Source of the DNA: a virus
Virus record (IMG/VR): IMGVR_UViG_3300037088_000099
Coordinates: 1-47,795 of that record
Length of the DNA: 47,795 bases
Strand: one strand, 5' to 3'
The notes beneath the pieces are model-generated. The model was given only the letters and a program-made list of their open reading frames with translations. It did no database searches and was not told the origin of the DNA. The position numbers and the translations under genes are program-made. Positions 1-47,795 of the stretch are shown here, one piece after another (the first letter of the stretch is position 1; every line of letters starts with the position of its first letter).

Positions 1-127
1 TATAATGAACCTAGCCCCAGTACGGATGAGGCGAGAAAGACTCCGATTGGAGTAGGATGTATACCATGCAGATTACAATTACACTCACGGATGCACAGGA
101 ATCCGCCCTGTTTATGATGGGGAAGGA
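1..127. repeat. terminal direct repeat, left copy
   Basis: Bases 1-127 are identical to 47669-47795; genome unit is 47668 bp. Confidence 0.9.
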
Positions 128-3693: not shown

Positions 3694-4101
3694 ATGGAAG
3701 AGAATCAGGTAAAGAAACAAACGCCGCAGGAAAAAGTGGTTGAATATTATCTTGTGCTTGCAAAATACTACGCAGCGCATCCGAATGCGATGGTCGAATA
3801 TCTGCCAACGATTCAATATCTCTGGATCGACGGAAAACCGGAAGAGTACAAAGCTGCTGGCGCGGGAGATAAGGAGTTCACGAATGATTATGTGAACTAT
3901 AAGGTAGAGCTTATTCCCAATAAGCTTACATTGAATTTCTGCACTCCGCGTGGAAATGTATGCAAGAAACGTGTAGTAGGCACGAAAGAAGTTCCAGAGT
4001 TTTATATTGCTGGGACAGCCGGAAGAGTAATCCCCGCGCATACGGAAGAAGTAATCGAATGGGATTGCCCTGAGTCGCTTCTAAAGGCCAAAGAATCCTA
4101 G
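3694..4101 (+). CDS. hypothetical protein
   Basis: In-frame ATG at 3694 within ORF 3586-4101, preceded by AGGAGATGGG; gives 135 aa. Confidence 0.6.
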   Translation: MEENQVKKQTPQEKVVEYYLVLAKYYAAHPNAMVEYLPTIQYLWIDGKPEEYKAAGAGDKEFTNDYVNYKVELIPNKLTLNFCTPRGNVCKKRVVGTKEVPEFYIAGTAGRVIPAHTEEVIEWDCPESLLKAKES

Positions 4102-4120
4102 CCTTACCCGCACCTTTACC

Positions 4121-4149
4121 TTGACACCTTGCGCGCGATGTGCGACAAT
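4121..4149 (+). promoter_or_regulatory. candidate sigma70-like promoter (TTGACA with weak -10)
   Basis: cTTGACAc at 4120-4127 matches the core at 1203 and 9423. The -10 is weak (GACAAT), so confidence is low. Confidence 0.3.
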
Positions 4150-4253
4150 GTAACTAGATCGCATACGCGCGCAATCGTCAGTGTAAAGTAGCTACGCACT
4201 GAAAAAGCGCACTATAGTAATACGGGCAACCCCCGTAGGAGAGTAATAAATCT

Positions 4254-4787
4254 ATGTCAACCACCGCAGTTATCTCTGATCCTAACACAATCGCAACTCT
4301 TCCAATCAGCAGCGAAGTTCTGAACTACACCGCTATTGTCGAACTTGACGAGAAAGGTGTAATCCAGAAGAAGTCCCTCACTACCAGCTCCAAGCGTGTG
4401 GAAACGCTGGAAGCTGCTGATTACTCCGGCAAGGAAATCATCGCATTCAAGCAGACTGTTTCTCGCCCGGTTGTTGGTACGCTTGCGGGATTCACTGATC
4501 TGTTCCCGGATGCTGATGCGCAGCTTTTCATTATCAACCGCGGTTTGAGTGCGTTTGCTGATGCGAAGGTTCGTTCTGTATTCCTGGAAACTGATAAGGA
4601 CGACACCGCGCTTGTTTTCCAGTCCACCACCGGCACGTATGATCTTACCGCTGATGTGCAGGATACGCCAGCACGCAAGCTCACGAGCGAGGAAACTCTG
4701 GTCGCCAGCCTGCGCAAGATGGGAGTCAGTTCGGATATGATCTCGCAGGTGTTTGCGAGCTTGCAGGCGAACAAGGCTACTGTCTAA
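4254..4787 (+). CDS. hypothetical early protein, probably highly expressed
   Basis: 177-aa ORF with AGGAGAG upstream, lying between a candidate promoter and a strong intrinsic terminator. Confidence 0.8.
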   Translation: MSTTAVISDPNTIATLPISSEVLNYTAIVELDEKGVIQKKSLTTSSKRVETLEAADYSGKEIIAFKQTVSRPVVGTLAGFTDLFPDADAQLFIINRGLSAFADAKVRSVFLETDKDDTALVFQSTTGTYDLTADVQDTPARKLTSEETLVASLRKMGVSSDMISQVFASLQANKATV

Positions 4788-4821
4788 ACGATATACGCAA
4801 TAGATTGCAGCATTTGAAGAC

Positions 4822-4860
4822 TGGCGCACGTTCAGTAAAATGGGCGTGCGCCATTTTTAA
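4822..4860 (+). terminator. intrinsic terminator
   Basis: Stem TGGCGCACG (4822-4830) pairs with CGTGCGCCA (4845-4853), followed by a T5 run, about 35 nt after the stop at 4787. Confidence 0.55.
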
Positions 4861-4881
4861 TTGTAGGGTAGGAGCATAACT

Positions 4882-5226
4882 ATGATCGCATGTGATTTAA
4901 ATCACTATAATGATGCTATAATGTATCTAAAAGGTGCTAGACATGATTTATCTGTAGCAGCTGCAAAACTTCAAGCCATGGGCGAAGGAGATGGTTGGCC
5001 TGAGTGGTATAAAATGGCTGAAACTGAAACGATAAGAGAGTTATTCCGGAAAGAAAAATGGTATAGCCCTGAAATGGATAATATACCAGAATTCATCTTA
5101 TTTCGCGGATTGCTTAGTAATTGGACACCGCGCAAAGAACAAGAGAGTCAAATAAAAATTGCTGCCGAGCGCATAGCAATTTATCAATGGGTAGAAGGTG
5201 AGATTATAAAAACATGGCACTCTTGA
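4882..5226 (+). CDS. hypothetical protein (AT-rich gene)
   Basis: 114-aa ORF with AGGAG upstream. Visibly more AT-rich than neighbouring genes. Confidence 0.6.
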   Translation: MIACDLNHYNDAIMYLKGARHDLSVAAAKLQAMGEGDGWPEWYKMAETETIRELFRKEKWYSPEMDNIPEFILFRGLLSNWTPRKEQESQIKIAAERIAIYQWVEGEIIKTWHS

Positions 5227-6074
5227 GTAACGGTCAACTTGCGAAATGCCCGCGATGCGGGATGAATATAGCTGGTGTACGGCTAACCACGGGACAAATA
5301 GCATATCATTGTACTTGGACATTTTGCGAGGATAAGAATAAAACACTGTGGAATTCTGAGATTCTTGCGCGTCCTGTACTCACACAAGCGCAGAAAGATT
5401 CTTATCGCATATCCGCAATGCTAAAAGCAGGCCAGAGTAACGCGCAGATACCAGGATTTTTTGCACAAGCATACGCACAAGCACAAGCTCCAACTGGCTC
5501 GCATCCAAATAATACACAGCCGATATACCCGATATACTCAGCACAACCGAGGCGCACTTCCATGAAAGAAATCCGAATAACATATCTCTACAACAATACA
5601 ATCGTAGAACTATATTTCATAACCATGCCACGCAAAGGCTGGTTCAAAGACAACATCCAGCCAGTTATAGATGTTATGAAAAATATGATTCCCGCGAACG
5701 CGCGTGAATACGACCCCGCGACGTTCAAATGGCAGATTGCGATTGAGTATTGGCCCGCGTTGCGACAGATATTGACCTCCACACAATTCGCGGTAAAGGA
5801 AGTATCGCCCTCTACTTCGCACGCGAACGTACCCAAAGATTATGCAGAGAATTTCTATCACGCGCCAGTAAAACGCGAGGTTGAGACGAAGGAGTCTATA
5901 CTTGTGCTGCTTGCAAAGCTACTCGGAATCCATGAGGATATTGCGAGTATGGAGCTGGTCGCGCTGAAAAAGAAATATCGTGAGGCTGCACGCCGATACC
6001 ATCCTGACCTCGGTGGAGATGCTGCGAAGATGGCGGAGTTGAATCGAGTTTGGAGTATATACAATACTAATTAA
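5214..6074 (+). CDS. J-domain (DnaJ-like) protein with N-terminal CxxC motif
   Basis: C-terminus LVALKKKYREAARRYHPDLGGDAAKMAELNRVWSIY has the HPD tripeptide in a helix II/III J-domain context. N-terminus has CPRCG. Confidence 0.8.
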   Translation: MALLSNGQLAKCPRCGMNIAGVRLTTGQIAYHCTWTFCEDKNKTLWNSEILARPVLTQAQKDSYRISAMLKAGQSNAQIPGFFAQAYAQAQAPTGSHPNNTQPIYPIYSAQPRRTSMKEIRITYLYNNTIVELYFITMPRKGWFKDNIQPVIDVMKNMIPANAREYDPATFKWQIAIEYWPALRQILTSTQFAVKEVSPSTSHANVPKDYAENFYHAPVKREVETKESILVLLAKLLGIHEDIASMELVALKKKYREAARRYHPDLGGDAAKMAELNRVWSIYNTN

Positions 6075-6083
6075 GGAGAAATT

Positions 6084-6341
6084 ATGCATACCGGAGCAGT
6101 CAGAGAGCTAGTAGCAGCAGCGGAAGAGGCGGCGGAATGGATACACGAGAGAACCACCCACAGCAAGATTGAGTACCTTCTCCGCGCATCGGTGGAAGCG
6201 GTCAAGGCGGAGGAGAAGCCGCAGACGCATGAGTTCTTCTCAGGCTCAAGCAATGGATTTCGAGTGTTCTGCCAACACGAAGAGACGACACGCTGTGGCC
6301 TACCCCACGACGCACCGAGCCACCAGACAGGAGGCAAATAA
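6084..6341 (+). CDS. hypothetical protein
   Basis: 85-aa ORF with AAGGAGA upstream. Confidence 0.5.
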   Translation: MHTGAVRELVAAAEEAAEWIHERTTHSKIEYLLRASVEAVKAEEKPQTHEFFSGSSNGFRVFCQHEETTRCGLPHDAPSHQTGGK

Positions 6342-6529
6342 TGCGAATCAAGCGTAATACTGCGGGCGGACTAACTATAATAGTAGGCCGTCTATCAATA
6401 TGGACTGACCCATGTGATAAATTCTGGAATTTTGTATATGGCAACAACAGATTTAATGTGAATTTATATTTAGGTTGGCTGAATTTCAGTTTTGTGAAGA
6501 AAGGAGCATATGAAACTCATAATTCGTAA
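6341..6529 (+). CDS. hypothetical small protein
   Basis: 62-aa ORF whose ATG overlaps the upstream stop (TAATG); overlaps the next gene by 20 nt. Confidence 0.35.
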   Translation: MRIKRNTAGGLTIIVGRLSIWTDPCDKFWNFVYGNNRFNVNLYLGWLNFSFVKKGAYETHNS

Positions 6530-6800
6530 ACAGGGCGCATATTGGAATGTCGATTTCAATGGCGCACATCGCTTTTATCCTGACTATCTCGGCGCAGTTA
6601 CATACGCTGATAAAACATGGCGGAGGTATTATAAAGAGCAAGCAGCGCACTCGATGATACTTGCGCTTGCTGCGAATCTCTTGGAAGCTGATGAACTTGC
6701 GCTATATACCAAACTCCGCAAGAACAAATGTGCTGGAATCACCGTCAAACAATACGGTTACGTCAAAGGAATCTACGAACGACAAAAGAGAGCGTGGTAA
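6510..6800 (+). CDS. hypothetical protein
   Basis: 96-aa ORF with GAAAGGAG upstream. Confidence 0.6.
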   Translation: MKLIIRKQGAYWNVDFNGAHRFYPDYLGAVTYADKTWRRYYKEQAAHSMILALAANLLEADELALYTKLRKNKCAGITVKQYGYVKGIYERQKRAW

Positions 6801-6801
6801 T

Positions 6802-6984
6802 ATGCAGATAATCGAGTGTCCGATATGTGGCACACCATGTGGTAAACGCTATCCTAGTACAGAAACTGATCCCGCATTCTGTGAGGGGATTGGTGAGAAT
6901 TTCTCAAGTAGTGAAGCAGGATTCGGAGTTTGGTGTTGTAGTCAAGATTGTTTAGATGAATACAACGAAGGCGCGATGCAGTAA
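6802..6984 (+). CDS. small zinc-ribbon protein
   Basis: In-frame ATG 1 nt after the upstream stop; 60 aa with CPICG and CCSQDC motifs. Confidence 0.5.
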   Translation: MQIIECPICGTPCGKRYPSTETDPAFCEGIGENFSSSEAGFGVWCCSQDCLDEYNEGAMQ

Positions 6985-6993
6985 GCGCAGCTC

Positions 6994-7025
6994 AAAGCAG
7001 CTACTTGCTAATTAGTAGCTGCTTT
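6994..7025 (+). terminator. perfect 12-bp hairpin, terminator-like
   Basis: AAAGCAGCTACT pairs with AGTAGCTGCTTT around an 8-nt loop, just after the stop at 6984. No long U-tract, so it may be an attenuator or processing site. Confidence 0.35.
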
Positions 7026-7058
7026 ATGGTGTACTTATACATCGAATAAGGAGAATAC

Positions 7059-7256
7059 ATGAAACATATTATTGTTGTAGCAACACCCGATGATGCTGTT
7101 ATAGATGGAGTAGATGAGCAAACATTACAGGATACTGTAATTACTGTGATTGAAGCTCTTTTTGAGCAGCATTATTCAGCAGTTTATACACAATCAACCT
7201 TCAATGCAAAATCAGCAGTCGTCGCAGTCAAAAAGATGTACAACGTGGAGGAATAA
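7059..7256 (+). CDS. hypothetical acidic small protein
   Basis: 65-aa ORF with AAGGAGA upstream. Confidence 0.6.
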   Translation: MKHIIVVATPDDAVIDGVDEQTLQDTVITVIEALFEQHYSAVYTQSTFNAKSAVVAVKKMYNVEE

Positions 7257-7553
7257 ATGAAACTCGAAGATATAACCGCGGAGCAATTTGATGCTTGGAT
7301 AGAGAAAACAACCAGTCCGGCTGAAAAACCAGACGATAACTGGCTCGCAGAAACCGCTATGGCAATGGAAACAATGAAATCAATGCCGGCATTGCGCGAA
7401 TATCTCACGCTAGTCGCGCTTGTTTCCAAGCTATCAGGCAAATCCAGTGCAAATGCAATTTTCACAATCGGTATTTGTCTCGGAATAGAATTCGCCGTTG
7501 ATCGCGCGGAGAGCGAGAAATTGGAGGCACTTGTATGCCCAGTCTCACAGTAA
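7257..7553 (+). CDS. hypothetical protein
   Basis: 98-aa ORF starting directly after the upstream stop. Confidence 0.55.
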   Translation: MKLEDITAEQFDAWIEKTTSPAEKPDDNWLAETAMAMETMKSMPALREYLTLVALVSKLSGKSSANAIFTIGICLGIEFAVDRAESEKLEALVCPVSQ

Positions 7554-8203
7554 TACAGAAACCAATCGTCTCTAGCAACGGGCGAATTCTTACCGGATTG
7601 GCTGCGCGGAAAGCACAGCTCGCGTCTGAGCTTGGGTTGCCGCAGGAGCTAAAACCGGGGCAGATGGAGCATAGGATTGGAATAGTATTTGATGATTCTG
7701 GTTCTATGCGAACGGATATGATCGAAGACGCGCATGTAGGATGCGAGGAATTCTTACGCTACTGCGAACCGAATAAAACCGCGGTATGTGTATATCCTAT
7801 GAACGCGGATGAGCTGTCGCTTAGTACGAATCTTCCTGCGCTCGCTATGCTTATCAATGGTATCCACGCAACAGGTGGGACTCCGTTGATTCAAAAGCTC
7901 AGTAAGATGCTGCGCGCGAATAAGCTCACACGCGCGATCGTATTTAGTGACGGGTGCCCGCAGTCGTATTCAGACGTAGACTATAATTTCTGTGTGGAAT
8001 CTAAGATTCCGGTAGACACAGTATTCATTGGTTCTGGCTATGGTAGCGAGTTCATGCAAAAGCTCGCCTCTGATTGCAACGGCATATTCCTGCAATTCGA
8101 GCGCGGAAAGTCTAATTTTCGTACTGCATTCAAATATCTGAGTCCCGGACTTCGGTATATGCTTGCGGACTCTTCATTCAGGGAAAAAATACAAGGGAGA
8201 TAG
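7535..8203 (+). CDS. von Willebrand factor type A (vWA) domain protein
   Basis: MIDAS-type DxSxS motif in IGIVFDDSGSM, then ATGGT and IVFSDG motifs in vWA order. No signal peptide. Confidence 0.75.
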   Translation: MPSLTVIQKPIVSSNGRILTGLAARKAQLASELGLPQELKPGQMEHRIGIVFDDSGSMRTDMIEDAHVGCEEFLRYCEPNKTAVCVYPMNADELSLSTNLPALAMLINGIHATGGTPLIQKLSKMLRANKLTRAIVFSDGCPQSYSDVDYNFCVESKIPVDTVFIGSGYGSEFMQKLASDCNGIFLQFERGKSNFRTAFKYLSPGLRYMLADSSFREKIQGR

Positions 8204-8204
8204 C

Positions 8205-9323
8205 GTGCCACTCACCCAAGAACAAGCACTTATCACCGCGCTCCTATCTCAAAAGCTTTCTGCGCTACGTATTCGCGCGAGCTTCGAGAGTGTCGAGCCG
8301 GGGCCAATAGTCACAACCTATTACATGCATCTCGGTGCTGATATTCCTATCTCCAAAATAATGCGAGCGGAGGAAGACCTTGCGCTGGCAGTTGGAGCAC
8401 CGAGCGTACTTATAACACGAAAGGGGGCTTCAATTGCGATTGCGATTCCGAATAAGGAAAGAACTGTCGTATCTTACGATTCTTGTTTGCACTCACTTAT
8501 GCAGGATGCTAATTGTCAGTTGCCAATTATGCTTGGAGTTGACACGAAAGGTAATGAGAAACATATTGATCTTATCGAATCACCGCACATTCTCATTGCA
8601 GGTAGTACAGGTGCAGGCAAGTCAGTATTACTTGCAGCAATCATTAGTGGGCTTGCTACAGCCAAGAGTAAGCATGAACTCAAAATGATGCTTGTAGACA
8701 CCAAGCAGCTTGATCTAACTCTATTTGCAGACCTCCCGCATGTAGTGGAGGTCGCAGATGATTTAGAGAAAGTGCATTTGCTACTTGATCGCTTACACAT
8801 CATAGTCCGCCAGCGTACAGCGAAGATGAAGGGTATAGCACGGAATCTTTCTGAGTACAACGCGCTGGGCGATCATCAACTTCCGTATTATGTAGTTGTT
8901 ATAGATGAGCTTGCAGATGTGCTAATGCAGGATCGAAGTGCCGGGAAAGGAATACGAGGATATGAAAAAGCTGAAACAAAGCTACAGGGTTTATTGCAGA
9001 TATGCCGCGCAGCGGGAATTCACATCATTTGTGCTACACAACGCCCCTCGGTGGAAATTATTACTGGTGATATTAAAGCTAATATACTTACGCGAATTGC
9101 ACTTAGGCTACCTAGTGGGGCTGACAGTAGAACTGTATTAAATGAATACGGAGCCGAAAAACTCCTCGGACGTGGAGACATGCTTATCGAATCCCCCTGC
9201 TTCGACCAAATAACCAGATTCCACGGGCCGTTTGTGAGCATGGCTCATATAGCAAGCGTGTTGGATAACTGTGATGGTATTAGGAATAGTTATAAAATGC
9301 TGGAATCGAGTATCGGGTTGTAG
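8205..9323 (+). CDS. FtsK/SpoIIIE-family DNA translocase ATPase (motor domain only)
   Basis: Walker A IAGSTGAGKSVLL, Walker B YYVVVIDELADVL, and a C-terminal block ICATQRPSVEIITGDIKANILTRIAL that closely matches the FtsK motor. GTG at 8205 with AGGGAG upstream sits 1 nt after the vWA stop; the ORF track's longer TTG start is at 8163. Confidence 0.8.
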   Translation: MPLTQEQALITALLSQKLSALRIRASFESVEPGPIVTTYYMHLGADIPISKIMRAEEDLALAVGAPSVLITRKGASIAIAIPNKERTVVSYDSCLHSLMQDANCQLPIMLGVDTKGNEKHIDLIESPHILIAGSTGAGKSVLLAAIISGLATAKSKHELKMMLVDTKQLDLTLFADLPHVVEVADDLEKVHLLLDRLHIIVRQRTAKMKGIARNLSEYNALGDHQLPYYVVVIDELADVLMQDRSAGKGIRGYEKAETKLQGLLQICRAAGIHIICATQRPSVEIITGDIKANILTRIALRLPSGADSRTVLNEYGAEKLLGRGDMLIESPCFDQITRFHGPFVSMAHIASVLDNCDGIRNSYKMLESSIGL

Positions 9324-13948: not shown

Positions 13949-15079
13949 TTGTCTAACACGCATGTTGCAAATAGTGGAAATCCTGCTTGCCCCGTATGGG
14001 TGATGCTGAATAAACCTCTTTCCGGTGACTCGGATAAGGGATATTTATTCAGCTCCCCTATGGGGTATGTTTTTGATAAAATGATGCGGGAAGCGGGGCT
14101 GCCGGATTATTTTGTTACCTGTAATCAGCCTAATACGGATTCTAATGCCGGCGGGGATTGGTTATCTTATTTCATGCACCATAAACCTGCGATTATAATT
14201 CCGCTTGGCGCGGTAGGTGGGCATCTTTCTGAGTGTATGATACCAAAATATCGCTCCGCAAAATACGATCCAGAGCGAGATTCTGAGATTTCTAAATATG
14301 CGGGTTCGTTACTCACTGCGGATCGCTTGCCAAATGTAACATGGCCGCACTATGTTGTCCCGACATACGAGCCACTGGATATTGTAAAACAGTGGAAGAT
14401 GCGGGATGTGGTTATCAGCTGTGATCTCGCCAAGGCAGCAAGCGAGTACGAATACTGGAGAACCCATGCTCATACAATGCAGCCACTTCCTGAGCGCACA
14501 CCCAAGATTAATTTCGATTCTTTCGACGAGCTTTTATATATCTTGGATACTTTTTGTAATTACCCTTTGCTTTCTAATGACATCGAGACGATCTATCCAA
14601 GAGCGCCTACGAAAACCCAACCATCGCAATTCTACCGTATTCTTCCTGGCTATCCTATTACTATCGGTCTTGCTCCTACTGTCGGGTTCGGTATTAGCTT
14701 TGATTTATTTAGAGAATCTACAGTAGAAACTCGCGAGCTATGGAAAAAGCTAGCTAAGTTACTATGGGAAGTACCATCCCTCGGTCAAAATTTCTTCAAC
14801 TTTGATGCGAATTTCTACGAAATGCTCGGCTTTCGGCTTCCACTTGAAAAATGTCGGGATACTATGATTCAGCATCATTTACTCTGGCCGGAATTGAAAC
14901 ATACGTTACAATTTCAGGCGAGACAGTATACCCGCGAGGTATACTGGAAGGACGAGGGTGCTGGCTGGAGTATTAAGAATATGGATCAAATGAAAATCTA
15001 TAATTGTAAGGACGTAATGTGTACGTTGGAGATTTACTACGCGCAACTGGAAGAGATGAAATCAAGGGGGTTGGAATGA
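13949..15079 (+). CDS. DNA polymerase A family, 3'-5' exonuclease subunit
   Basis: Exo I (SNDIETI), Exo II (GQNFFNFDANFYEML) and Exo III (YNCKDVMCTLEIY) motifs in canonical order. N-terminal 200 aa of unknown fold. The ORF ends without a polymerase domain. Confidence 0.8.
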   Translation: MSNTHVANSGNPACPVWVMLNKPLSGDSDKGYLFSSPMGYVFDKMMREAGLPDYFVTCNQPNTDSNAGGDWLSYFMHHKPAIIIPLGAVGGHLSECMIPKYRSAKYDPERDSEISKYAGSLLTADRLPNVTWPHYVVPTYEPLDIVKQWKMRDVVISCDLAKAASEYEYWRTHAHTMQPLPERTPKINFDSFDELLYILDTFCNYPLLSNDIETIYPRAPTKTQPSQFYRILPGYPITIGLAPTVGFGISFDLFRESTVETRELWKKLAKLLWEVPSLGQNFFNFDANFYEMLGFRLPLEKCRDTMIQHHLLWPELKHTLQFQARQYTREVYWKDEGAGWSIKNMDQMKIYNCKDVMCTLEIYYAQLEEMKSRGLE

Positions 15080-15895: not shown

Positions 15896-16627
15896 ATGAA
15901 AATCGTTCAACCATATGCGAAAATTATAGAGCCTGAGTTATTGGCACAAGCACTTCAGCGGATTGAAGCCGCTGCCCGCATCAGCCACAGAAGCGAAGAT
16001 GGACAGACAGCAGATACAGCAGAAAAGTTTATTCGTGCTGTTGTATTAGGACACGGTGATTGGTCAGTTGTGGAACACGTTTCCGCATCAGTCGAGTTTC
16101 TTGTGGATCGCGGCATTACACATGAAATCGTGAGACACCGGATTGCCAGTTATACGCAGGAGTCCACGCGGTTTGTAAACTACGCAAAGAAGATGTTGCC
16201 CAGCTTTATCTATCCCATCGTTGGGGTAGAGTGCCCGTACTGCATTGCTGGGGAAGAAGTACGCAAGCGCGATTCTTTGGGTGGCAACTGGGGCCACGAT
16301 AACCTAATTAAATGCCCGTATGATCCTCTGTGGTTAACTGCGATTGATACCTTAGAAAAATCGTACACTGCTTTGATCGCACAGGGATGGCGACCACAGG
16401 AAGCGCGGTCTGTTTTTCCCAACGCCCTATCCTCAAAGATTCTCGTGACTTGTAATCTGCGTTCATGGCGTCAAATCTTTCTGATGAGAACGAGCAAAGA
16501 AGCACATCCACAAATGCGTCATGTGATGATTCCTCTGCTAGCTGATTTTCAGAGGCTTGTGCCGGTACTCTTTGAGGATATTATTCCCGAGTCGCGGCAA
16601 GTTGAAAATATAGCGAGGGGAAGATAA
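15896..16627 (+). CDS. thyX: flavin-dependent thymidylate synthase (ThyX)
   Basis: ThyX signature RHRIASYTQESTR (RHR ... S ... R) at the expected position in a protein of about 240 aa. Contains an extra Cys-rich segment CPYC...CPYD. Confidence 0.8.
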   Translation: MKIVQPYAKIIEPELLAQALQRIEAAARISHRSEDGQTADTAEKFIRAVVLGHGDWSVVEHVSASVEFLVDRGITHEIVRHRIASYTQESTRFVNYAKKMLPSFIYPIVGVECPYCIAGEEVRKRDSLGGNWGHDNLIKCPYDPLWLTAIDTLEKSYTALIAQGWRPQEARSVFPNALSSKILVTCNLRSWRQIFLMRTSKEAHPQMRHVMIPLLADFQRLVPVLFEDIIPESRQVENIARGR

Positions 16628-16641
16628 GTGACTGGTATACT

Positions 16642-18171
16642 ATGACACCTAATAAGATTACTAGTGAGTATCTACATGCGCTGCAAGCTGTGTACCATAG
16701 GATAGATTCCAGGGGTATTCTTGTTAACAAAGAAAGGCTAAGAGATGCTGCACTTTATATTAACAAAAGCATTGATACTCAGTGCCATATTATTAGTGAT
16801 ATTTGGAACTTGGACTGTTACATCGGAGCCTCAAACAAGCCGGAAACTGGCTCTCGGCGCAGTCTTAATCTTAATAGTTCCTCCGGTGACAATACTCCTC
16901 TGCTCTATCTAAAATCAGTAGGATTTAAAATCCCAAAAGTCAGCAGCAGAGACGAGGATGGAAACTACATAGCAAAGGAATCTCTCAATGAGCTTGTCCT
17001 GCAAAAAATATATGCTACCAATCAATTCGGAATCCTTGGGGGCGACCCGGCGTTACGAGCGCTATTGCGAATACGCGAACTCGGTACCTTGCGCGCACGG
17101 TATATCAATGCGAATCTGTACGAACGAGAAGGGACTAGCCTCTTTCTTACAAATTACAACATCGCTGGAACGGTCACAGGTCGCAGAGGCTCTCGCAAAC
17201 ACACGTTTGGATTTGGAGGGAATGCTCAGAATTTCCCAAAGCATGGAGAACTCGCTAAAGTATACCGCAGGTGTTTGGTTGCAAGACCAGGAAAAATCCT
17301 GTTGAATGTAGATCAGATGCAAGCGGAAGATTGGCCGACAAGTGCGCTGGCACAGAATATGGAGGCGTTGGATGATTTACGGAATAACGTGGATCGGCAC
17401 AGAAAACTCGGTTGCCTCATATTTGACCTCCCTTGGGATCATTATACAGATGTTGAATGGAAGGATTCAATTGAGCGCTATCTTGGTAAGCAAACTAGAC
17501 ACGCGAACAATTACGGGATGCGAGCAAATACTATGTCAGACTCGCTGGCAAAGGAGGGACACTCAGTTACACCTGCTCAATGCGCTGCTATTCTCGAAAA
17601 AGTAAACAAGCATGATCCCTCTGTCGAACACGTATTCCACAAATACATAAAGGACTGTCTATATGCAAACCGCACCCTCCGCACTCCCTTCTCCCGCGAA
17701 CGTATCTTCTTCGGCCTCCGTGCTGGCGAATCAGGAAGTAATAACAAAATTTTCAACGAAGCATTTAGCTACATACCACAGTCTGTTGTCGGAGATAACA
17801 CGGGATTCTCAATGTTTGCTCTTGAAACCGGAAATGACGCGACAAGAGGTCACGTTATACAAGAATGCCATGATTCGATTATGCAGGAGATTGACGACAA
17901 TGTGGATTCTATCTGGGATCATATCCAAGCGGCTAAAGCAGCATTTAATCGCCCAATTCGATTCGACAACGGAATTGAAATCAACATCCCAGTTGAGGGA
18001 GAGTTGTCCTACGACTTCTCACAAGGAGTAAGTTTGAAGTCATCCAGCACCAAGACGAAAAAACTCTCTGACATATCGTACAGTGATGTACAAGCAGCAT
18101 TTTATCAGCTGCAAGAAATAAAACAGAAAGAAGCCCAAGATGGCCAGAAAGTTGCCTCAGAATTGGATTAG
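16642..18171 (+). CDS. DNA polymerase A family, polymerase-domain subunit
   Basis: O-helix region GTVTGRRGS...GNAQNFPK resembles the Klenow TGRLSS...PNLQNIP block. Motif B-like KQTRHANNYG and motif C-like ECHDS are present. No exonuclease domain in this ORF. Confidence 0.85.
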   Translation: MTPNKITSEYLHALQAVYHRIDSRGILVNKERLRDAALYINKSIDTQCHIISDIWNLDCYIGASNKPETGSRRSLNLNSSSGDNTPLLYLKSVGFKIPKVSSRDEDGNYIAKESLNELVLQKIYATNQFGILGGDPALRALLRIRELGTLRARYINANLYEREGTSLFLTNYNIAGTVTGRRGSRKHTFGFGGNAQNFPKHGELAKVYRRCLVARPGKILLNVDQMQAEDWPTSALAQNMEALDDLRNNVDRHRKLGCLIFDLPWDHYTDVEWKDSIERYLGKQTRHANNYGMRANTMSDSLAKEGHSVTPAQCAAILEKVNKHDPSVEHVFHKYIKDCLYANRTLRTPFSRERIFFGLRAGESGSNNKIFNEAFSYIPQSVVGDNTGFSMFALETGNDATRGHVIQECHDSIMQEIDDNVDSIWDHIQAAKAAFNRPIRFDNGIEINIPVEGELSYDFSQGVSLKSSSTKTKKLSDISYSDVQAAFYQLQEIKQKEAQDGQKVASELD

Positions 18172-19393
18172 CAGTTATGTAAACGCTATTACTCCGATCA
18201 CTGAGGCTCCTGATGCGTATGTGTATTGGTCAGCCATCTCAGTGGTCAGCGCAGTTCTTAAAAAGAAAGTGTGGATACAACGTGGGACATTCAAAGTCTA
18301 CCCCAATCAATACATCATACTTGTTGGGCCGCCGGGAGTTGGCAAAGGAACCGCAATGCATCCCGCTCACGCATTTATCAAAGAGTATAAACCTGAACTT
18401 TCAAACTACCTCAGTGATCGAATCACCGCTCCTGAAATCATTTCGCGTCTGGCTGCTGGGTTCCAGACCCAGAGCATAGTTAATGGCCACGTAGTAACCG
18501 CAACCGAATCCACAGCATGTATCATGGCAACAGAACTTAGTACATTTTTAGGTAGCAGCGATTGGATGACTTCATTTCTCTGTGATACTTGGGATAGGAG
18601 TAAATTTGAATATGGGACTAAGAATAAAGGCAGTTATGCTATTAAGGACATGTGCGTTTCTCTTATCGGTGCTTGTGTTCCAGATTTTATCCGCAGGATT
18701 AACGGTAAGACTAGTTCCGCGGAGGCTATTAATAGCGGCTTCACGGCTCGTACTATATTCGTATTCGCAAATGAAAAGTCCAAGAAACTACCCTGGCCCA
18801 CTCAGCTCAAGGATACTAATGGCGGAGCGGATACGATCACTAATCTACGATACGACCTCGAACAAATAGCACAGGTCAATGGCGAGTACACATTCACACA
18901 AGAAGCAATCGACACATTTAACCAATGGTACGCGAAACTCGGTGCCACAGACACAGACTCAGATGTAGTCCGGCACTTTAAAAGTCGCCAAGATGTACAC
19001 GTATTCAAAGTCGCAATGTGTCTTGCGGCTGCGAGTAACGACAAACTTGTAATAGATCGTTGGTGTTTATTCACAGCGATTCAATTAGTACAAGGCGTAC
19101 TTGATACGCTGGATATAACATTTAGGGGGGTGGGAGAGAGCACACTTAGCGAAGCCACAGCAAAGGTTCAAACGTATTTGGAGAGAAAGGGCATAGCAAC
19201 ACGTGCAGAGCTAGTACGCGATAATGCTCGTCATGCGACAATGGAAGATTTAGATAGAATCATTTTAACACTACACACGATAGGTTTAGTAAGACCATTT
19301 TCAACGGGAGGCCGCCAGTACTATGAATACACCAAGCAGGGAGCAGGACATGTTGGGACGCCGGGAATTAGAATTGGAAACAACGTCCCTTGA
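18140..19393 (+). CDS. P-loop NTPase (AAA-like Walker A), candidate replication helicase or loader
   Basis: Walker A ILVGPPGVGKGT near residue 62 of 417. Lies directly downstream of the polymerase. Family not resolved. Confidence 0.55.
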   Translation: MARKLPQNWISSYVNAITPITEAPDAYVYWSAISVVSAVLKKKVWIQRGTFKVYPNQYIILVGPPGVGKGTAMHPAHAFIKEYKPELSNYLSDRITAPEIISRLAAGFQTQSIVNGHVVTATESTACIMATELSTFLGSSDWMTSFLCDTWDRSKFEYGTKNKGSYAIKDMCVSLIGACVPDFIRRINGKTSSAEAINSGFTARTIFVFANEKSKKLPWPTQLKDTNGGADTITNLRYDLEQIAQVNGEYTFTQEAIDTFNQWYAKLGATDTDSDVVRHFKSRQDVHVFKVAMCLAAASNDKLVIDRWCLFTAIQLVQGVLDTLDITFRGVGESTLSEATAKVQTYLERKGIATRAELVRDNARHATMEDLDRIILTLHTIGLVRPFSTGGRQYYEYTKQGAGHVGTPGIRIGNNVP

Positions 19394-19919
19394 TAATACG
19401 ATTTTTGTTGTTGCAGGGAAGCTGGGATTAGAAGCAATTGAGGATAAAATTCTAATTCTAATCGACAAATTCAAAAGCGGTTACGAATGTAAAGATTGCA
19501 ATGAAACGGGGATATATGTCAGTTGTGAGTGCGAACGAAAAGGAACTCCGGGCCGCTACATCAGTGGAAACATTGATCGAGCGTGCCGATTTTGCGAAGG
19601 CAATTACGAAGAGCGAAGAGGAAAAACGTGCCCTTCTTGTCACGGAACTGGCAGCACAATTATCATGCCTGACAATGCAAAAGCTATACCTACTTCTGGA
19701 GTTATCGTCAGCATTGGCCCAGGCTGCAAGACTAGAAAAATCGCTGAGCGAGTTCTGTTCTCGGCTCACACCGGATACTTCCTGCCGTTTAAAGGAAATG
19801 CAAAAATAAGATGTATGCGGGAGGATGAGCCGTTGTGTTTAATCCATGCTATAGACAACACTCAAACGCTTGGAGATTTTCTACAAATCGAGGATTCACT
19901 TGAAACGCTAAATAAATAA
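19350..19919 (+). CDS. zinc-ribbon protein with GroES-like C-terminal segment (hypothesis)
   Basis: ATG at 19350 with GGGAGCAGGA upstream. Four CxxC/CxC pairs including CPSCHGTG, then IIMPDNAKAIPTSGVIVSIGPG...RVLFSAHTGYF...REDEPLCLIHAI, which is loosely Cpn10-like. Confidence 0.5.
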   Translation: MLGRRELELETTSLDNTIFVVAGKLGLEAIEDKILILIDKFKSGYECKDCNETGIYVSCECERKGTPGRYISGNIDRACRFCEGNYEERRGKTCPSCHGTGSTIIMPDNAKAIPTSGVIVSIGPGCKTRKIAERVLFSAHTGYFLPFKGNAKIRCMREDEPLCLIHAIDNTQTLGDFLQIEDSLETLNK

Positions 19920-19930
19920 GGAGAATAATC

Positions 19931-20305
19931 GTGAAACGAATCCCTGCAATCATCGCTCTATTCTTGGCTGTGCCGCTCATCGCGCAGACTGCCAAGCCAA
20001 CCGTACCGCCAACCCCGCCAGCAGTAACGGCCAAATCTGCACCGCAGTTGTCGGACTATCCTAATTACATCAGTATAGGAACAACTGTCCTCAACTTCGC
20101 TGACATCGCCATTGATAACACAACGAAGGGAGGATGCAGCCAAGTGTTCGGTCGCTGGGATGCGAAACGACATTTGTGCAAGGGAGTTATTCAGTTCGAG
20201 GGAATGGGCCGCGTGTCGTGTTCGCGGGGAAGTGCACATAATGTAGACAAAAATATGTGGGTAGTAACCTGCTGGTACACACCCAAACCAAAGGAGAAAA
20301 AATGA
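19931..20305 (+). CDS. secreted Cys-containing protein
   Basis: GTG start with AAGGAGA upstream. N-terminal signal-peptide-like MKRIPAIIALFLAVPLIAQ; four Cys in the mature part. Confidence 0.55.
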   Translation: MKRIPAIIALFLAVPLIAQTAKPTVPPTPPAVTAKSAPQLSDYPNYISIGTTVLNFADIAIDNTTKGGCSQVFGRWDAKRHLCKGVIQFEGMGRVSCSRGSAHNVDKNMWVVTCWYTPKPKEKK

Positions 20306-20610
20306 AGCATCTCATCACCGCAACTCTACTCATCGGAACACTCACTGCCATTGGCCAAGCACCAAAGGCTCTAACGACTCCGCAAGCCAAGCCCCCGACC
20401 ATCACCGATGCACAACGCGCCCAGTTCTTCAAAGCGCAGTCCCAGATGATCCAGGCCAACGCGCAGGCCCAGCAGAGACAGACGGATTTCCAATCGGTCA
20501 TCGCGGAGATGCAGAAGACGTGCGGTGACACTGCCAGCCTGAACCTGAACCAATCCGGCGACCCTGAGTGTGTTGCCAAGCCCGCGCCAGCCAAGACGCC
20601 CAACCAATAA
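20302..20610 (+). CDS. signal-peptide or membrane-anchored periplasmic protein (i-spanin-like?)
   Basis: ATG at 20302 with AAGGAGAAAA upstream. Hydrophobic N-terminus, Gln/Ala-rich helical region, two Cys, Pro-rich C-terminus. Confidence 0.5.
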   Translation: MKHLITATLLIGTLTAIGQAPKALTTPQAKPPTITDAQRAQFFKAQSQMIQANAQAQQRQTDFQSVIAEMQKTCGDTASLNLNQSGDPECVAKPAPAKTPNQ

Positions 20611-20620
20611 AAGTAAGCAA

Positions 20621-20670
20621 GCAGCAAAAAGAATGGCCACTCTATTAACTTAGAGTGGCCATTTTAGTTT
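20621..20670. terminator. bidirectional intrinsic terminator
   Basis: Perfect 12-bp stem AATGGCCACTCT / AGAGTGGCCATT (20632-20643 and 20652-20663) with an A-run on one side and a T-rich run on the other. Lies between the last + gene (stop 20610) and the last - gene (stop 20743). Confidence 0.65.
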
Positions 20671-20742
20671 CTGCGGCTTGTGCTTTACCCGCACAGAGGG
20701 TGAATGCTAGTTACTCGTCGTGCCGTGCTTCGTGGTGCGCTC

Positions 20743-23700
20743 CTAGTTGATGAGAGTGTAGCTGTAGCACCCCGGATTCACCGCTAATGTTCCGGGGATC
20801 GACACAGTGAAACTTGTACCGGCTGTCCGGGCCGTAATCACAGGATTGACAATTGAAGCCAAGGTAGTGTTGCAAGTCACGCCAAGGGCAGAGCCAATTG
20901 AGGTATCAGGGTATACAGCAATTGTGCCGACTCCAGTTGTGTGGGTAGTGTTGACTGTCACGGAAGTGGAACCGGCTGCAATTATAAAAAATCCCTGTGA
21001 TGCGCTGGCGCAGGCGGCAGGAGAAGCTATAGAGACACACTGAGAAGACATATTGAGTGTGCCCGATGTTACCGACGTGAATAGACTCGTGTTCGGTGTT
21101 GTAAATCCAATCGGCCCTGGTGATGCAAACGTAGCCCCATTCAATGCCGTTGCATTTATCGTTCCCGTGCCGGATGCGCCGAGGCTTGCGCCACTTCCGA
21201 CGACCATTGCCGCTGTCGTATTAGTAGCACTGGTAATCGCGGAAAATGCAGGAGTGCTTGTTCCGCAGACTCCGCCCCCCGTCCCATCCGCAAGGCAGTG
21301 GGCTTCTGGTACTCCGCTACCATTCAAGTCTGTGCTGCCCGCTCCTGCTGAAGATACGCCTATACTGCTCACCCGAAACTGATTGGCCGTGCCGACGTTG
21401 AACATAGAAGTCGCAGTCGTGTCACCGATGCTGACGTTGCCTGCAAAGGATGAGTTGCCTGTGGCTGTTACAGTCAAAGGCACATAAGTTGTTACTGCTG
21501 TGCTGGAAAAGCTAATCGGTTCAATGCTTGCGGTAGCGTCCCACAAAGCAAGCAACCCTGTTCCAAAACCAGACCCTGTGCCAGTGCTTTCTAATGCCCA
21601 GTTATGCCCTGCTGCTGAGGTGTTGTTTAAGTAAAATGTTGTGGCATAAGCTGATGAAGTTAGATTTAGCGCCAATGGGTTTGTCGTTAATACATCAAGC
21701 GCTGCTGCTGGACTCGTCGTCCCGATGCCCAGTCTATGATTCGTCGCATCCCAGAAGAAATTGGAATTGTCTTGTGCGATGGTTGAGCCATTTGAGAACA
21801 ACACGGAGCCAGAGGTTAGCGAAGGCAAAGTGAATGTCCCGTAGGTATTTGTATCCAGCGCAAACGTGCCCGCCGCCGTCATCTTCACAAATGATGGAGA
21901 TACATAAGTAGGATAATTCAGTGCTGCCCAGTTGCCGAGAGTAGGGGTACCACTCACCTGCGAGTAGGGCAGACTTAGGCTGGGCAGCGTTGTCAGCGTC
22001 GAGTTGCTCGTAGCGGTGATGTTCGCCGCCGTGCCAGTAAATGATGTTCCATGCACTATTCCCTGTAAGTAAGTGTCTGTTATACTTGAATTTCCTAGTG
22101 TCGTGGTGTTGCTGCCGTTGCCAGTAGCTGCGTTTCCGATCACATTTTCGTTTGTGTCGCCGTCAGCAAAAGCATACGTCGATGCACCTATATATGTGCT
22201 ACTTGAACTTGTCGTATTAGCAACACTACCACCAGACTTGTATTGCCCTGCCTGCGACCCTATTGCAACATTTGTGCTACCTGTCGTAATGTTCTTTAGG
22301 GCCATCGCACCTATTGCTGTATTATTTGTACCTATTGTAAGAAATTCAAGGGACTGATAACCAAGCGCGGAGTTAGTGCCACCATACGTAGCAGCCCCAA
22401 GCGAGTCATCTCCGACGGATGTATTGTATGATGCTGTCGTAGAAAATGCCTGAGAACTTTCTCCGATAGCAGTATTGCCATTGCCGATGGTATTGACGTG
22501 CAGGGCATAATGACCCAGAGCGGTGCTGTAACTACCCGAAGTGGTGCCACCAAGTGCTCCGTAGCCAACTGACGTATCATCACCCCCGGTACTAGCTGTG
22601 GGCAGTGATCCTCCTATATTTGCGTTGCCAGTTCCAAACCAACTGATCGGCGCACCACTATCCTGAACCGCATCTCCTGTACCAGTAAAGGTTGCGGCAT
22701 CATTGGCAGTCGGACTTCCGGGGCCGGTGACGGGATTGGTGAGTGCCGCTTGCTTGTTGTTGAAGGTGTTCCAATCAGTGCTGCTCAGATAGCCGCTCGT
22801 AGAGGTCGAGGACTGAGCCATCCGGGCGAGTGCAACCGTTCCACTACTCAGGTTGGAAGCATTCGAGGCATAAGTCTCGGCATTGCTCTGAGCCGTTGCC
22901 GCCGCTCCAGCCGCATCCGCTCCCACGCTTGCTGCTGTCGCAGAGATCGCCCCAGCCGTATTGAGAATAGAAGTTCCGTCCGGCTTGACTCCACCTAATA
23001 CGGAAGACGTTGCAGTGGGAAGAGTATAGCTGCCGCTCGGTGTCCCACAGCCACTACCATCTGCCTTCGCGTAGGTGCCAGATGCACAGGATGGAATGGT
23101 GACAGAAGTAAATGCTCCAGCAGCCGGTGTTACGTTTCCGATAGGAGTTGCGTTGATTCCACCGGTCAGGTAGTTGATATTTCCAATCCCGTAAAGCGAA
23201 CCGGATAGGTAAATGTTGCCCTGTACATTCAGCGGCGTTGCGCCGTGTCCGATATCGGTTGCACCGTAGTAGGTAGAGCCGTTGATATTCGTGACTGCCC
23301 AGTTGATCGAGCAGGTCGCGCAGGAACTATAATCGGTAACAATGCCTTGAATTATTCCATTTCCCACCGTTTCAGACCCAGCCGTAGAGTTCACGCCGCG
23401 CACCACACCCGCGAAAGTGTCATTGGGAAAGGTTGTCGTGCTCAGTGACGTATAACAGAAAATCTCACTCTGCTCAAGCGTAGCGCATCCCGGCACAGCC
23501 GCTCCACCAATCGTAGCTATGGTGGGAATAGTGGTCTGCGTGGCTGAGATGTTGCTCGCCAGTTGCCACTCTACATATGGGGTGAACGGTGCAGCATACT
23601 GATTGTGATTCGGGCAAGCATAGCCAGCGCACTCCACCGACACCGCGCTTACAGCCGTGGCCACATTGAGCGTGTTCGCGTCCACAATCGTCGGAGCAAT

Positions 23701-25443: not shown

Positions 25444-25528
25444 ATTTATACCCACCAGTAAGGAGTTTCTGCATCGTGAACATTTAAGAGCATATAAATA
25501 TGCTCAAAATTAAAATCGAGATTGTACA

Positions 25529-47668: not shown

Positions 47669-47795
47669 TATAATGAACCTAGCCCCAGTACGGATGAGGC
47701 GAGAAAGACTCCGATTGGAGTAGGATGTATACCATGCAGATTACAATTACACTCACGGATGCACAGGAATCCGCCCTGTTTATGATGGGGAAGGA
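47669..47795. repeat. terminal direct repeat, right copy
   Basis: Exact copy of bases 1-127, including the first 71 nt of the ORF that starts at 57. Confidence 0.9.

What the first reader, a model, noticed from the sequence alone, without database searches (positions are those of the whole stretch)
5214..6074. Phage-encoded J-domain protein
The C-terminal 60 aa carry a canonical J-domain with HPD, fused to an N-terminal region with a CxxC motif. A J-domain would recruit host Hsp70/DnaK, for example for replication-complex remodelling or host takeover.
Basis: partly seen in the sequence, partly recalled or inferred. Interest (0 to 1): 0.6.

Follow-up and report, generated by a model that had tools for sequence, protein, structure and literature searches.

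The report
Phage J-domain co-chaperone with HARP-like domain
This gene of an uncultured phage really does encode a J-domain protein, a helper that switches on the host's Hsp70/DnaK chaperone, and the J-domain is always fused to a small domain resembling the fork-DNA-binding HARP domain, which suggests the phage steers the host chaperone to DNA-bound complexes.

Summary

This is an about 85-aa beta-beta-alpha-beta-beta-alpha-beta domain (residues 116-200) that repeatedly gives near-threshold matches to Pfam HARP, the SMARCAL1/UvsW fork-DNA-binding domain. The 4-Cys zinc ribbon at the N-terminus is optional within the family.

The family has about 80 clusters, all labelled "hypothetical". Every relative whose neighbourhood I examined lies in one uncultured phage clade of 40-48 kb genomes, at a fixed position in the early/replication arm. 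The window is a complete genome (127-bp terminal repeat). It has no Hsp70 of its own but does carry a GroES-like gene.

The most likely role is a specialised (class C) co-chaperone that brings host DnaK to a DNA-bound client. That target is inferred, not shown. Phage J-proteins are already known (Rki of RB43). The architecture appears undescribed, so interest is moderate.

The parts
5214..6074 (+). Complete gene for the 286-aa J-domain protein. The stop codon is 6072-6074. The start overlaps the end of the upstream ORF 4882-5226 by 13 nt.
   Evidence: ORF list. There are 24 homologues at E<=1e-31, and most full-length close ones keep the N-terminus 'MA.LSNG..AKCPRCG'. Synteny is conserved in 10 related loci.
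5214..5438 (+). N-terminal module, residues 1-75. It is a four-Cys zinc ribbon (C12, C15, C33, C38) followed by helices. Within the family this module is optional and its copy number varies.
   Evidence: AF2 pLDDT is 82-91 for residues 1-60, with strands 18-23 and 29-33. C33 is nearly invariant among close relatives. Family members carry 0 to 8 CxxC motifs.
5439..5558 (+). Disordered Q/A/P-rich linker, residues 76-115. Its length varies between close relatives.
   Evidence: pLDDT is below 50 for residues 76-115. This region is rich in indels in alignment A1.
5559..5813 (+). Central HARP-like alpha/beta domain, residues 116-200, with topology beta-beta-alpha-beta-beta-alpha-beta. Signature motif: IK..IP...R.YD..T..W.I. 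R164 and W173 are invariant; K156, P160 and Y166 are at least 90% conserved.
5826..5858 (+). Conserved acidic-aromatic linker motif NVPKDYAENFY, residues 205-215, between the HARP-like domain and the J-domain. Distant members have [DE][DN]FFY[ES].
   Evidence: P207, Y210, F214 and Y215 are invariant and V206, K208, D209, A211 and E212 nearly invariant in A1. The motif lies in a low-pLDDT segment that contains a short predicted helix 208-214.
5889..6071 (+). C-terminal minimal J-domain, residues 226-286, with helices I, II and III. HPD is at nt 6000-6008. There is no helix IV.
   Evidence: In the alignment with E. coli DnaJ, Y255 aligns with Y25, R256 with K26, and the HPD and GD motifs are shared; the phage protein ends where DnaJ helix III ends.
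4254..4787 (+). Context: a conserved 177-aa ORFan that lies immediately upstream of the J gene in the related loci examined. It is flanked by a promoter-like site (4121-4149) and a terminator-like hairpin with a 13-bp stem (4822-4853).
   Evidence: Alignment A2. Synteny. 72 homologues, all 'hypothetical' with no Pfam domain. Promoter and terminator scan.
7535..9323 (+). Context: a VWA-like protein (7535-8203) and an FtsK/HerA-like ATPase (8163-9323). One or both lie a few genes downstream of the J gene in related loci long enough to show them, including the most distant family members.
   Evidence: PHROG and Pfam/NCBIfam hits. Neighbourhoods L001, L002, L072, L073 and L075-L077.
19323..19919 (+). 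Context: a GroES/Cpn10-like gene, a second co-chaperone-type gene in the same genome.
   Evidence: Pfam Cpn10 scores 22.2 bits against a gathering score of 21.1. The gene in the same position in L077 carries Cpn10.

Best explanation
The gene encodes a specialised (class C / type III) J-domain co-chaperone of a virulent-type tailed phage.

Shown computationally:
- The C-terminal 61 residues form a three-helix J-domain with an invariant HPD loop and a basic helix II.
- This J-domain is always fused, through an acidic-aromatic linker motif, to an about 85-aa HARP-like alpha/beta domain.
- Many members, including this one, add N-terminal zinc ribbons.

Inferred mechanism:
- Early in infection the HARP-like domain, helped by the zinc ribbon, docks on its target. 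The target is most likely branched or junction DNA, or a protein complex sitting on phage DNA such as a replication or recombination intermediate.
- The J-domain then contacts ATP-bound host DnaK and triggers ATP hydrolysis. DnaK clamps onto a client located there and remodels or disassembles it.
- This is the logic of lambda P/DnaB release by DnaJ-DnaK and of the J-domain of polyomavirus large T antigen.
- The phage has no Hsp70 of its own, so it depends on the host's.
For: J-domain identity:
- Pfam DnaJ E=7.2e-5; 66 of 73 relatives hit DnaJ, and some exceed the gathering score.
- The PDB profile search returns only J-domain proteins or J-domain co-chaperones, with the top hit at E=3.9e-6.
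- H263, P264 and D265 are invariant, and Y255, A259, M273, L276 and N277 are at least 90% conserved across 73 members.
- The DnaJ positions Y25/K26 are matched by Y255/R256.

Obligate fusion:
- A profile of the central domain alone finds only 79 representatives in 1.84 billion proteins. About 89 of the 99 proteins collected carry HPD directly downstream.

HARP-like nature of the central domain:
- Pfam HARP is the only recurrent non-DnaJ family, hitting 24 of 73 members. Best scores are 24.9, 23.3, 21.5 and 21.1 bits against a cut-off of 25, and together these hits cover profile positions 2-53 of 55.
- The solved SMARCAL1 HARP domain 4o66 is the best single-stretch PDB hit, E=0.023.
- The model is a five-stranded sheet with two main helices. 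That is how the HARP fold is described in PMC4666394.

Context:
- The gene is a core gene at a fixed position in the early/replication arm. That arm contains the FtsK-like ATPase, a PD-(D/E)XK nuclease, a Sak4-like protein, a split PolA and a DUF3987 helicase.
- The window contains no Hsp70.
- T-antigen J-domains can replace the DnaJ J-domain in E. coli (Kelley & Georgopoulos 1997, title cited).
Against: - There is no experiment; every functional step is inferred.
- This protein's own Pfam scores are below the curated cut-offs: DnaJ 23.3 against 27.8, HARP 15.6 against 25.
- HARP domains normally sit in cis with an SF2 motor, which is missing here.
- The genome also encodes a GroES-like protein. 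That fits a general protein-folding or assembly role for the phage's co-chaperones equally well.
- The host is unknown.
Confidence: 0.5

Rival explanations
1. Host-takeover regulator of the Rki type. The protein uses its J-domain to engage DnaK and so perturbs the host heat-shock circuit, for example by stabilising sigma-32 or titrating DnaK away from DnaJ. The central domain would bind a host protein rather than DNA.
For: The only characterised phage J-protein, Rki of RB43, works this way (PMC3486835). The gene lies in the early arm among small ORFans typical of takeover genes. Structural evidence for DNA binding is inconclusive.
Against: There is no sequence relationship to Rki: tblastn against 50,697 phage records finds nothing. 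The J-domain sits at the opposite end of the protein. The recurrent HARP signal and the zinc ribbons point to nucleic acid.
Confidence: 0.2
2. Folding or assembly co-chaperone. The protein delivers particular phage proteins, such as virion or replication enzymes, to DnaK for folding. It would work in parallel with the phage GroES-like protein that serves GroEL.
For: The same genome, and clade member L077, carry a Cpn10-like gene. This shows the clade invests in co-chaperones. J-proteins classically deliver substrates to Hsp70.
Against: The gene is in the early/replication arm, far from the structural genes on the other strand. No DnaJ-type substrate-binding C-terminal domain or CxxCxGxG zinc-finger domain is detected.
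Confidence: 0.2
3. Counter-defence decoy. The J-domain competes with host DnaJ for DnaK and so blinds DnaJ-dependent immune sensors.
For: DnaJ is reported to mediate phage sensing by bNACHT25 (cited in PMC12619734). Rki competes with DnaJ for DnaK.
Against: There is no direct evidence. A decoy would not need a strictly conserved second domain and linker motif.
Confidence: 0.05
4. A degenerate J-like domain with no Hsp70 activity, of the Tim16/Pam16 type, or a chance HPD.
Against: HPD is invariant in 73 divergent members, and the Y25/K26-equivalent positions and helix III core positions are conserved. J-like proteins characteristically lose HPD (established knowledge). Relatives pass the Pfam cut-off.
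Confidence: 0.05

Closest known systems
Rki (gp057w) of T4-like phage RB43, the first characterised phage-encoded J-domain protein (PMC3486835)
   Same: Both are phage-encoded type III/class C J-proteins with an HPD J-domain plus an orphan second domain. Both depend on host DnaK. Both show a weak or absent helix IV signature.
   Different: Rki has an N-terminal J-domain (residues 2-70) and a 160-aa C-terminal domain. Here the J-domain is C-terminal, behind a zinc ribbon and a HARP-like domain. No sequence similarity is detectable. The phage lineage is different.
J-domain of polyomavirus large and small T antigens (1gh6, 1faf, 2pf4)
   Different: The T-antigen J-domain is N-terminal and is followed in the same polypeptide by an origin-binding domain, a zinc domain and an SF3 helicase. 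The wider phage family has the DnaJ-like loop HPDRNxGD, so the T-antigen-like loop is a subfamily trait and probably convergent. Sis1 scores almost as well (E=7.9e-6).
Bacterial J-proteins DnaJ, CbpA and DjlA
   Same: They share the J-domain fold, the HPD loop and a basic helix II. CbpA is a precedent for a DNA-binding J-protein and appears among the PDB hits.
   Different: The phage protein has no G/F region, no CxxCxGxG zinc-finger domain, no DnaJ C-terminal substrate-binding domain and no helix IV. Its J-domain is at the C-terminus.
HARP domain of SMARCAL1 (PF07443, 4o66) and its structural relatives, the T4 UvsW N-domain, the XPB damage-recognition domain and MutS/MSH domain I
   Different: All known HARP-type domains are fused to a motor ATPase or a MutS core, whereas here the domain is fused to a J-domain. 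All scores fall just below the curated cut-off. ACT-like and eIF1 folds score as well or better structurally.

Membership tests
J-domain proteins (Pfam PF00226 DnaJ) | HPD tripeptide in the loop between helices II and III | tested here: met
   H263-P264-D265 lie between helix 248-262 and helix 270-285. They are invariant in 73 family members.
J-domain proteins (Pfam PF00226 DnaJ) | Profile match at the curated gathering score (27.8 bits) | tested here: inconclusive
   This protein scores 23.3 bits, E=7.2e-5, which is below the cut-off. The relatives P0088 (37.0), P0039 (31.1), P0051 (30.0) and P0054 (29.0) pass it. 66 of 73 members match at E<=0.05.
J-domain proteins (Pfam PF00226 DnaJ) | Antiparallel helix II / helix III hairpin fold | tested here: met
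J-domain proteins (Pfam PF00226 DnaJ) | Basic helix II with the Tyr-Lys/Arg pair (DnaJ Y25/K26) and a hydrophobic helix III core | tested here: met
   The sequence reads KKKYREAARRYHPD. Y255 aligns with Y25 and R256 with K26. L276, V279 and Y283 align with F47, I50 and Y54 of E. coli DnaJ.
J-domain proteins (Pfam PF00226 DnaJ) | Helix IV completing the four-helix bundle | tested here: not met
   The protein ends 6 residues after helix III. The Pfam match stops at profile position 49 of 63. This is not known to be required for Hsp70 contact (established knowledge of the DnaK-DnaJ interface); Tim14-type minimal J-domains exist.
J-domain proteins (Pfam PF00226 DnaJ) | HPD-dependent stimulation of Hsp70 ATPase | not testable with these tools
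   This needs biochemistry.
Class A/B DnaJ (Hsp40) chaperones | G/F-rich region, CxxCxGxG zinc-finger domain and DnaJ C-terminal substrate-binding domains | tested here: not met
   The Pfam scan at E<=10 lists only DnaJ, HARP and NosL. The zinc ribbon is CxxC...CxxxxC, not CxxCxGxG.
Rki-type phage J-proteins (RB43 gp057w) | N-terminal J-domain plus the Rki C-terminal domain; sequence similarity to RB43, RB16, KP15 or Aeromonas phage 65 homologues | tested here: not met
   tblastn against 50,697 phage records finds no match. The domain order is reversed.
HARP domain (Pfam PF07443) | Profile match at the curated gathering score (25 bits) | tested here: inconclusive
   This protein scores 15.6 bits, E=0.012. 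24 of 73 relatives match, and HARP is the only recurrent non-DnaJ family. The best scores are 24.9, 23.3, 21.5 and 21.1 bits.
HARP domain (Pfam PF07443) | [quoted passage not shown] | tested here: met
   The model has strands at 118-125, 130-136, 164-167, 172-176 and 192-196, and main helices at 149-158 and 177-189, plus a short helical turn at 143-147. The fold description comes from PMC4666394.
HARP domain (Pfam PF07443) | Specific structural or sequence similarity to the solved HARP domain (4o66) | tested here: inconclusive
HARP domain (Pfam PF07443) | Fusion to a dsDNA-translocase motor and binding of fork DNA | tested here: not met
   The polypeptide contains no ATPase domain. DNA binding is not testable here. 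An FtsK-like ATPase is encoded a few genes downstream, which is only a contextual observation.

The most novel reading that the evidence does not exclude
The HARP-J protein could be the targeting subunit of a split, chaperone-coupled DNA-remodelling module. Its HARP-like domain would recognise forks or junctions on phage DNA. Its J-domain would load host DnaK there. It would act together with the syntenic ORFan (4254-4787), the VWA-like protein and the FtsK/HerA-like dsDNA translocase (7535-9323). That would be a bacterial-virus counterpart of polyomavirus large T antigen (J-domain, DNA-binding domain and hexameric motor) spread over separate polypeptides, and the first case of Hsp70 recruited to DNA structures through a HARP domain.
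Probability: 0.15. Interest if true: 0.7.

Novelty: new variant of a known kind. Interest (0 to 1): 0.45.

Why it matters
Viruses of eukaryotes (polyomaviruses) and one T4-like phage are known to carry their own J-domain to commandeer Hsp70. This finding adds a whole family that is unannotated in every public source checked and is a core gene of an uncultured phage clade. In this family the J-domain is welded to a probable DNA-structure-recognition domain.

If the HARP assignment holds, it gives a simple and testable model for how a phage points the host's DnaK machine at replication or recombination intermediates. It would also extend the HARP domain beyond motor ATPases. Together with the GroES-like gene in the same genome, it shows a small phage encoding co-chaperones for both major host chaperone systems.

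Tried and rejected
- Megablast of 4000-8000 and tblastn of the protein against 50,697 phage records found no match. No cultured relative carries the gene.
- The GTDB genome scan returned only J-domain-only matches and no full-length relative, so there is no prophage or host clue.
- TerL gives only 21-24% identity to cyanobacterial podoviruses, with one uncultured Caudoviricetes record at 31.7% over 58% of the query. The host is left open.
- PHROGs matched only J-region hits to five 'unknown function' families. NCBIfam found nothing meaningful.
- The narrow central-domain profile (A3) found nothing in the PDB.
- With the wider profile (A5), the top PDB hits were designed Kelch 'SAKe' proteins. 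I rejected these as artefacts: six repeats of the 'YDPETDEW' motif are summed, and each single match is non-significant.
- Foldseek against the PDB for the central domain gave nothing at E<1e-3. The afdb50 library was unavailable.
- An ACT-like or eIF1-like reading of the central domain was considered. It cannot be excluded structurally, but no sequence signal supports it.
- The weak NosL and PRK09781 hits on the zinc-ribbon region were dismissed as noise.
- The upstream ORFan had no Pfam, PHROG or PDB hit, and its 72 homologues are all 'hypothetical'.
- The similarity to T antigens was considered as a sign of common origin. I rejected it as unproven: Sis1 scores almost the same, and the wider family has a DnaJ-type loop.

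Full report
**Observation**

The sequence shows C12-x2-C15 and C33-x4-C38 near the N-terminus, and HPD at residues 263-265 (nt 6000-6008). The start overlaps the stop of the preceding ORF (4882-5226) by 13 nt. It is supported by conservation of the N-terminus 'MA.LSNG..AKCPRCG' in most full-length close homologues.

**Is the C-terminus a J-domain?**

- Pfam DnaJ (PF00226) matches residues 236-279 to profile positions 5-49 of 63, at E=7.2e-5 and 23.3 bits. This is significant but under the curated cut-off of 27.8.
- The weakness belongs to this one sequence, not to the family. Of 73 relatives scanned, 66 hit DnaJ (best E=1.9e-9), and P0088, P0039, P0051 and P0054 exceed the cut-off.
- A profile of the family searched against every PDB sequence returned 38 hits at E<=1. 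All are J-domain proteins or J-domain co-chaperones. The list is headed by SV40 large T antigen (1gh6_A, E=3.9e-6), Sis1, small t antigen and murine polyomavirus large T.
- The AlphaFold2 model (mean pLDDT 73; 79-91 over the C-terminus) has helix I 226-237, helix II 248-262, the HPD loop and helix III 270-285.
- H263, P264 and D265 are invariant across 73 divergent members. Y255, A259, M273, L276 and N277 are at least 90% conserved.
- Aligned with E. coli DnaJ, taken from NC_000913.3, Y255/R256 occupy the Y25/K26 positions. The HPD and GD motifs coincide, and L276/V279/Y283 fill the helix III core positions.
- The protein stops where DnaJ helix III ends, so helix IV is absent.

My verdict is that this is a genuine but minimal (three-helix) J-domain. 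'Canonical' overstates it.

The model shows three folded modules:
- a zinc ribbon with helices, residues 1-75, pLDDT 82-91 over the first 60 residues;
- a disordered Q/A/P-rich linker, residues 76-115;
- a compact alpha/beta domain, residues 118-196, with topology beta-beta-alpha-beta-beta-alpha-beta;
- the C-terminal J-domain.

A short conserved motif, NVPKDYAENFY (residues 205-215), lies between the alpha/beta domain and the J-domain. Distant members have [DE][DN]FFY[ES] there.

I built a profile of the central domain alone (A3) and ran it against 1.84 billion representative proteins. Only 79 matched at E<=1e-3. Of the 99 proteins collected in all, 89 have an HPD motif just downstream. The exceptions are mostly short fragments, plus one fusion to a DUF6804 domain. 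CxxC motifs range from 0 to 8 per protein.

The evolutionarily constant unit is therefore [central domain]-[acidic-aromatic motif]-[J-domain].

**What is the central domain?**

Sequence evidence points to HARP.
- Pfam HARP (PF07443) is the only family apart from DnaJ that recurs. It matches 24 of 73 members, while every other family is a singleton.
- The best individual scores are 24.9, 23.3, 21.5 and 21.1 bits against a cut-off of 25. Together these hits cover profile positions 2-53 of 55.
- The window protein itself scores 15.6 bits, E=0.012.
- A 56-sequence profile of the domain searched against the PDB gives the SMARCAL1 HARP domain 4o66_A as the best single-stretch hit, E=0.023. The higher-ranked hits are designed six-bladed Kelch proteins whose scores come from summing six individually non-significant 'YDPETDEW' matches.
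- The shared signature is IK..IP...R.YD..T..W.I.

Structure agrees in general terms but does not discriminate.
- The HARP fold is described as a five-stranded sheet packed on two helices, and it is also present at the N-terminus of T4 UvsW (PMC4666394).
- Foldseek against the PDB gives nothing at E<1e-3.

I rate HARP homology as probable, at roughly two in three, and not proven.

**Genomic setting**

- The window carries an exact 127-bp direct repeat at its two ends (1-127 = 47669-47795). It is therefore a complete 47.7-kb genome.
- The minus-strand arm encodes TerL, portal, major capsid protein and a 1570-aa tailspike-like protein.
- The plus-strand arm encodes small ORFans followed by a replication and recombination set:
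  - FtsK/HerA-like ATPase, 8163-9320;
  - PD-(D/E)XK nuclease;
  - Sak4/AAA_24 protein;
  - a family-A DNA polymerase split around a ThyX gene;
  - DUF3987 primase-helicase.
- There is no DNA or protein match for the region or the gene in 50,697 phage records. TerL is only 21-24% identical to cyanobacterial podoviruses, and 31.7% over 58% of its length to one uncultured Caudoviricetes record.
- All full-length relatives recovered from viral contigs and assemblies sit in genomes of the same layout. They keep the same neighbours: a 170-198-aa ORFan immediately upstream, and a VWA-like protein and/or the FtsK-like ATPase a few genes downstream. This holds even for the most distant members.
- GTDB genomes hold only J-domain-only matches.
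- Every public copy checked is labelled 'hypothetical protein'.
- The window has no Hsp70 homologue; tblastn with E. coli DnaK gives only E>3. It has only one J-domain. Any J-domain activity must therefore act on host DnaK.

**Mechanism**

Shown computationally:
- a real, conserved, clade-core phage gene;
- a J-domain with all Hsp70-activating hallmarks except helix IV;
- obligate fusion to a HARP-like domain.

Inferred from the established J-domain/Hsp70 cycle:
- The J-domain binds ATP-bound DnaK and triggers hydrolysis.
- DnaK then clamps a client that is positioned by the non-J modules.

Inferred from the HARP-like and zinc-ribbon modules and the gene's position: the client is on DNA, as a replication or recombination intermediate or a protein complex bound to it. 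Well-known precedents are lambda P-DnaB disassembly by DnaJ/DnaK and the J-domain of polyomavirus large T antigen. T-antigen J-domains function with DnaK in E. coli (Kelley & Georgopoulos 1997, cited in PMC3486835).

Rivals:
- an Rki-like host heat-shock manipulator (PMC3486835);
- a folding or assembly co-chaperone, made more plausible by the Cpn10/GroES-like gene at 19323-19916 (22.2 bits against a cut-off of 21.1) that is conserved in the clade;
- a counter-defence decoy against DnaJ-dependent sensors;
- an inactive J-like domain, which the invariant HPD makes unlikely.

**Comparison with known systems and novelty**

- Phage-encoded J-proteins are established (Rki, 2012). At least five PHROG families of unknown function share a J-like region with this protein. 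The concept is therefore not new.
- This protein is not an Rki relative. There is no similarity, and the domain order is reversed.
- It is not a class A or B DnaJ. It has no G/F region, no CxxCxGxG domain and no C-terminal substrate-binding domain.
- Its J-domain most resembles polyomavirus T-antigen J-domains, sharing HPD-x-GGD-xx-KM-xx-N-x-L with the same spacing. The wider family has the DnaJ-like HPDRNxGD loop and Sis1 scores nearly as well, so I treat this resemblance as convergent.
- A full-text search found no paper that mentions both the HARP domain and the J-domain.

I classify the finding as a new variant of a known kind. It is of moderate interest, with a clear experimental path.

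Noticed in passing
window 1-127 and 47669-47795: There is an exact 127-bp direct repeat at the two ends of the window. The window is therefore a complete phage genome of about 47.67 kb, either a circular assembly or one with terminal redundancy.
   Followed up: yes
window 19323-19919 (+): This 198-aa ORF has a Cpn10/GroES match above Pfam's cut-off (22.2 against 21.1 bits, residues 109-158). The gene in the same position in distant clade member L077 (20277-20549) also carries Cpn10. The phage appears to encode co-chaperones for both DnaK and GroEL.
   Followed up: partly
window 13949-15079, 15896-16627, 16642-18171 (+): The family-A DNA polymerase is split into two ORFs, an N-terminal/exonuclease part and a PF00476 polymerase part. 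A ThyX thymidylate synthase gene (PF02511, E=5e-40) and small ORFs lie between them.
   Followed up: no
window 4121-4853 (+): The conserved 177-aa ORFan 4254-4787 lies directly upstream of the J gene in the related genomes examined. It is flanked by a promoter-like site (TTGACA-17-GACAAT with a TG, 4121-4149) and a terminator-like hairpin with a 13-bp stem and a T-run (4822-4853). Its 72 homologues are all unannotated. It may be an abundantly expressed partner or client.
   Followed up: partly
window 7535-9323 (+): A VWA-like protein (7535-8203) overlaps an FtsK/HerA-like ATPase (8163-9323). One or both lie a few genes downstream of the J gene across the clade, including in L075-L077. The role of a dsDNA-translocase-like ATPase in a 48-kb phage is unexplained.
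   Followed up: partly
window 5826-5858 (+), residues 205-215: A strongly conserved acidic-aromatic motif, NVPKDYAENFY ([DE][DN]FFY[ES] in distant members), sits in an otherwise low-confidence linker just before the J-domain. It is reminiscent of regulatory motifs in DnaJ G/F linkers. Its function is unknown.
   Followed up: no
window 5989-6050 (+), residues 260-279: The subfamily's J-domain loop and helix III, HPDLGGDaaKMaELNrvW, have the same motif and spacing as the polyomavirus T-antigen sequence HPDKGGDeeKMkkMNtLY. The broader phage family has a DnaJ-like HPDRNxGD loop, so this is probably convergence.
   Followed up: partly
window 20000-24000 (-), within ORF 20743-25455: The 1570-aa tailspike-like gene region has 52-53% GC, against 42-48% across most of the rest of the genome. 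This suggests a horizontally acquired receptor-binding module.
   Followed up: no
P0047 (270 aa, metagenomic): One family member has the HARP-like domain (residues 25-106) fused to a DUF6804 domain instead of a J-domain. It was the only alternative fusion partner identified.
   Followed up: no
L001 10199-11492: Related genome L001 carries two family-2 glycosyltransferase genes downstream of the PD-(D/E)XK nuclease gene and upstream of Sak4. The window shows no match to that stretch. They may be a DNA- or host-modification cassette that varies within the clade.
   Followed up: no
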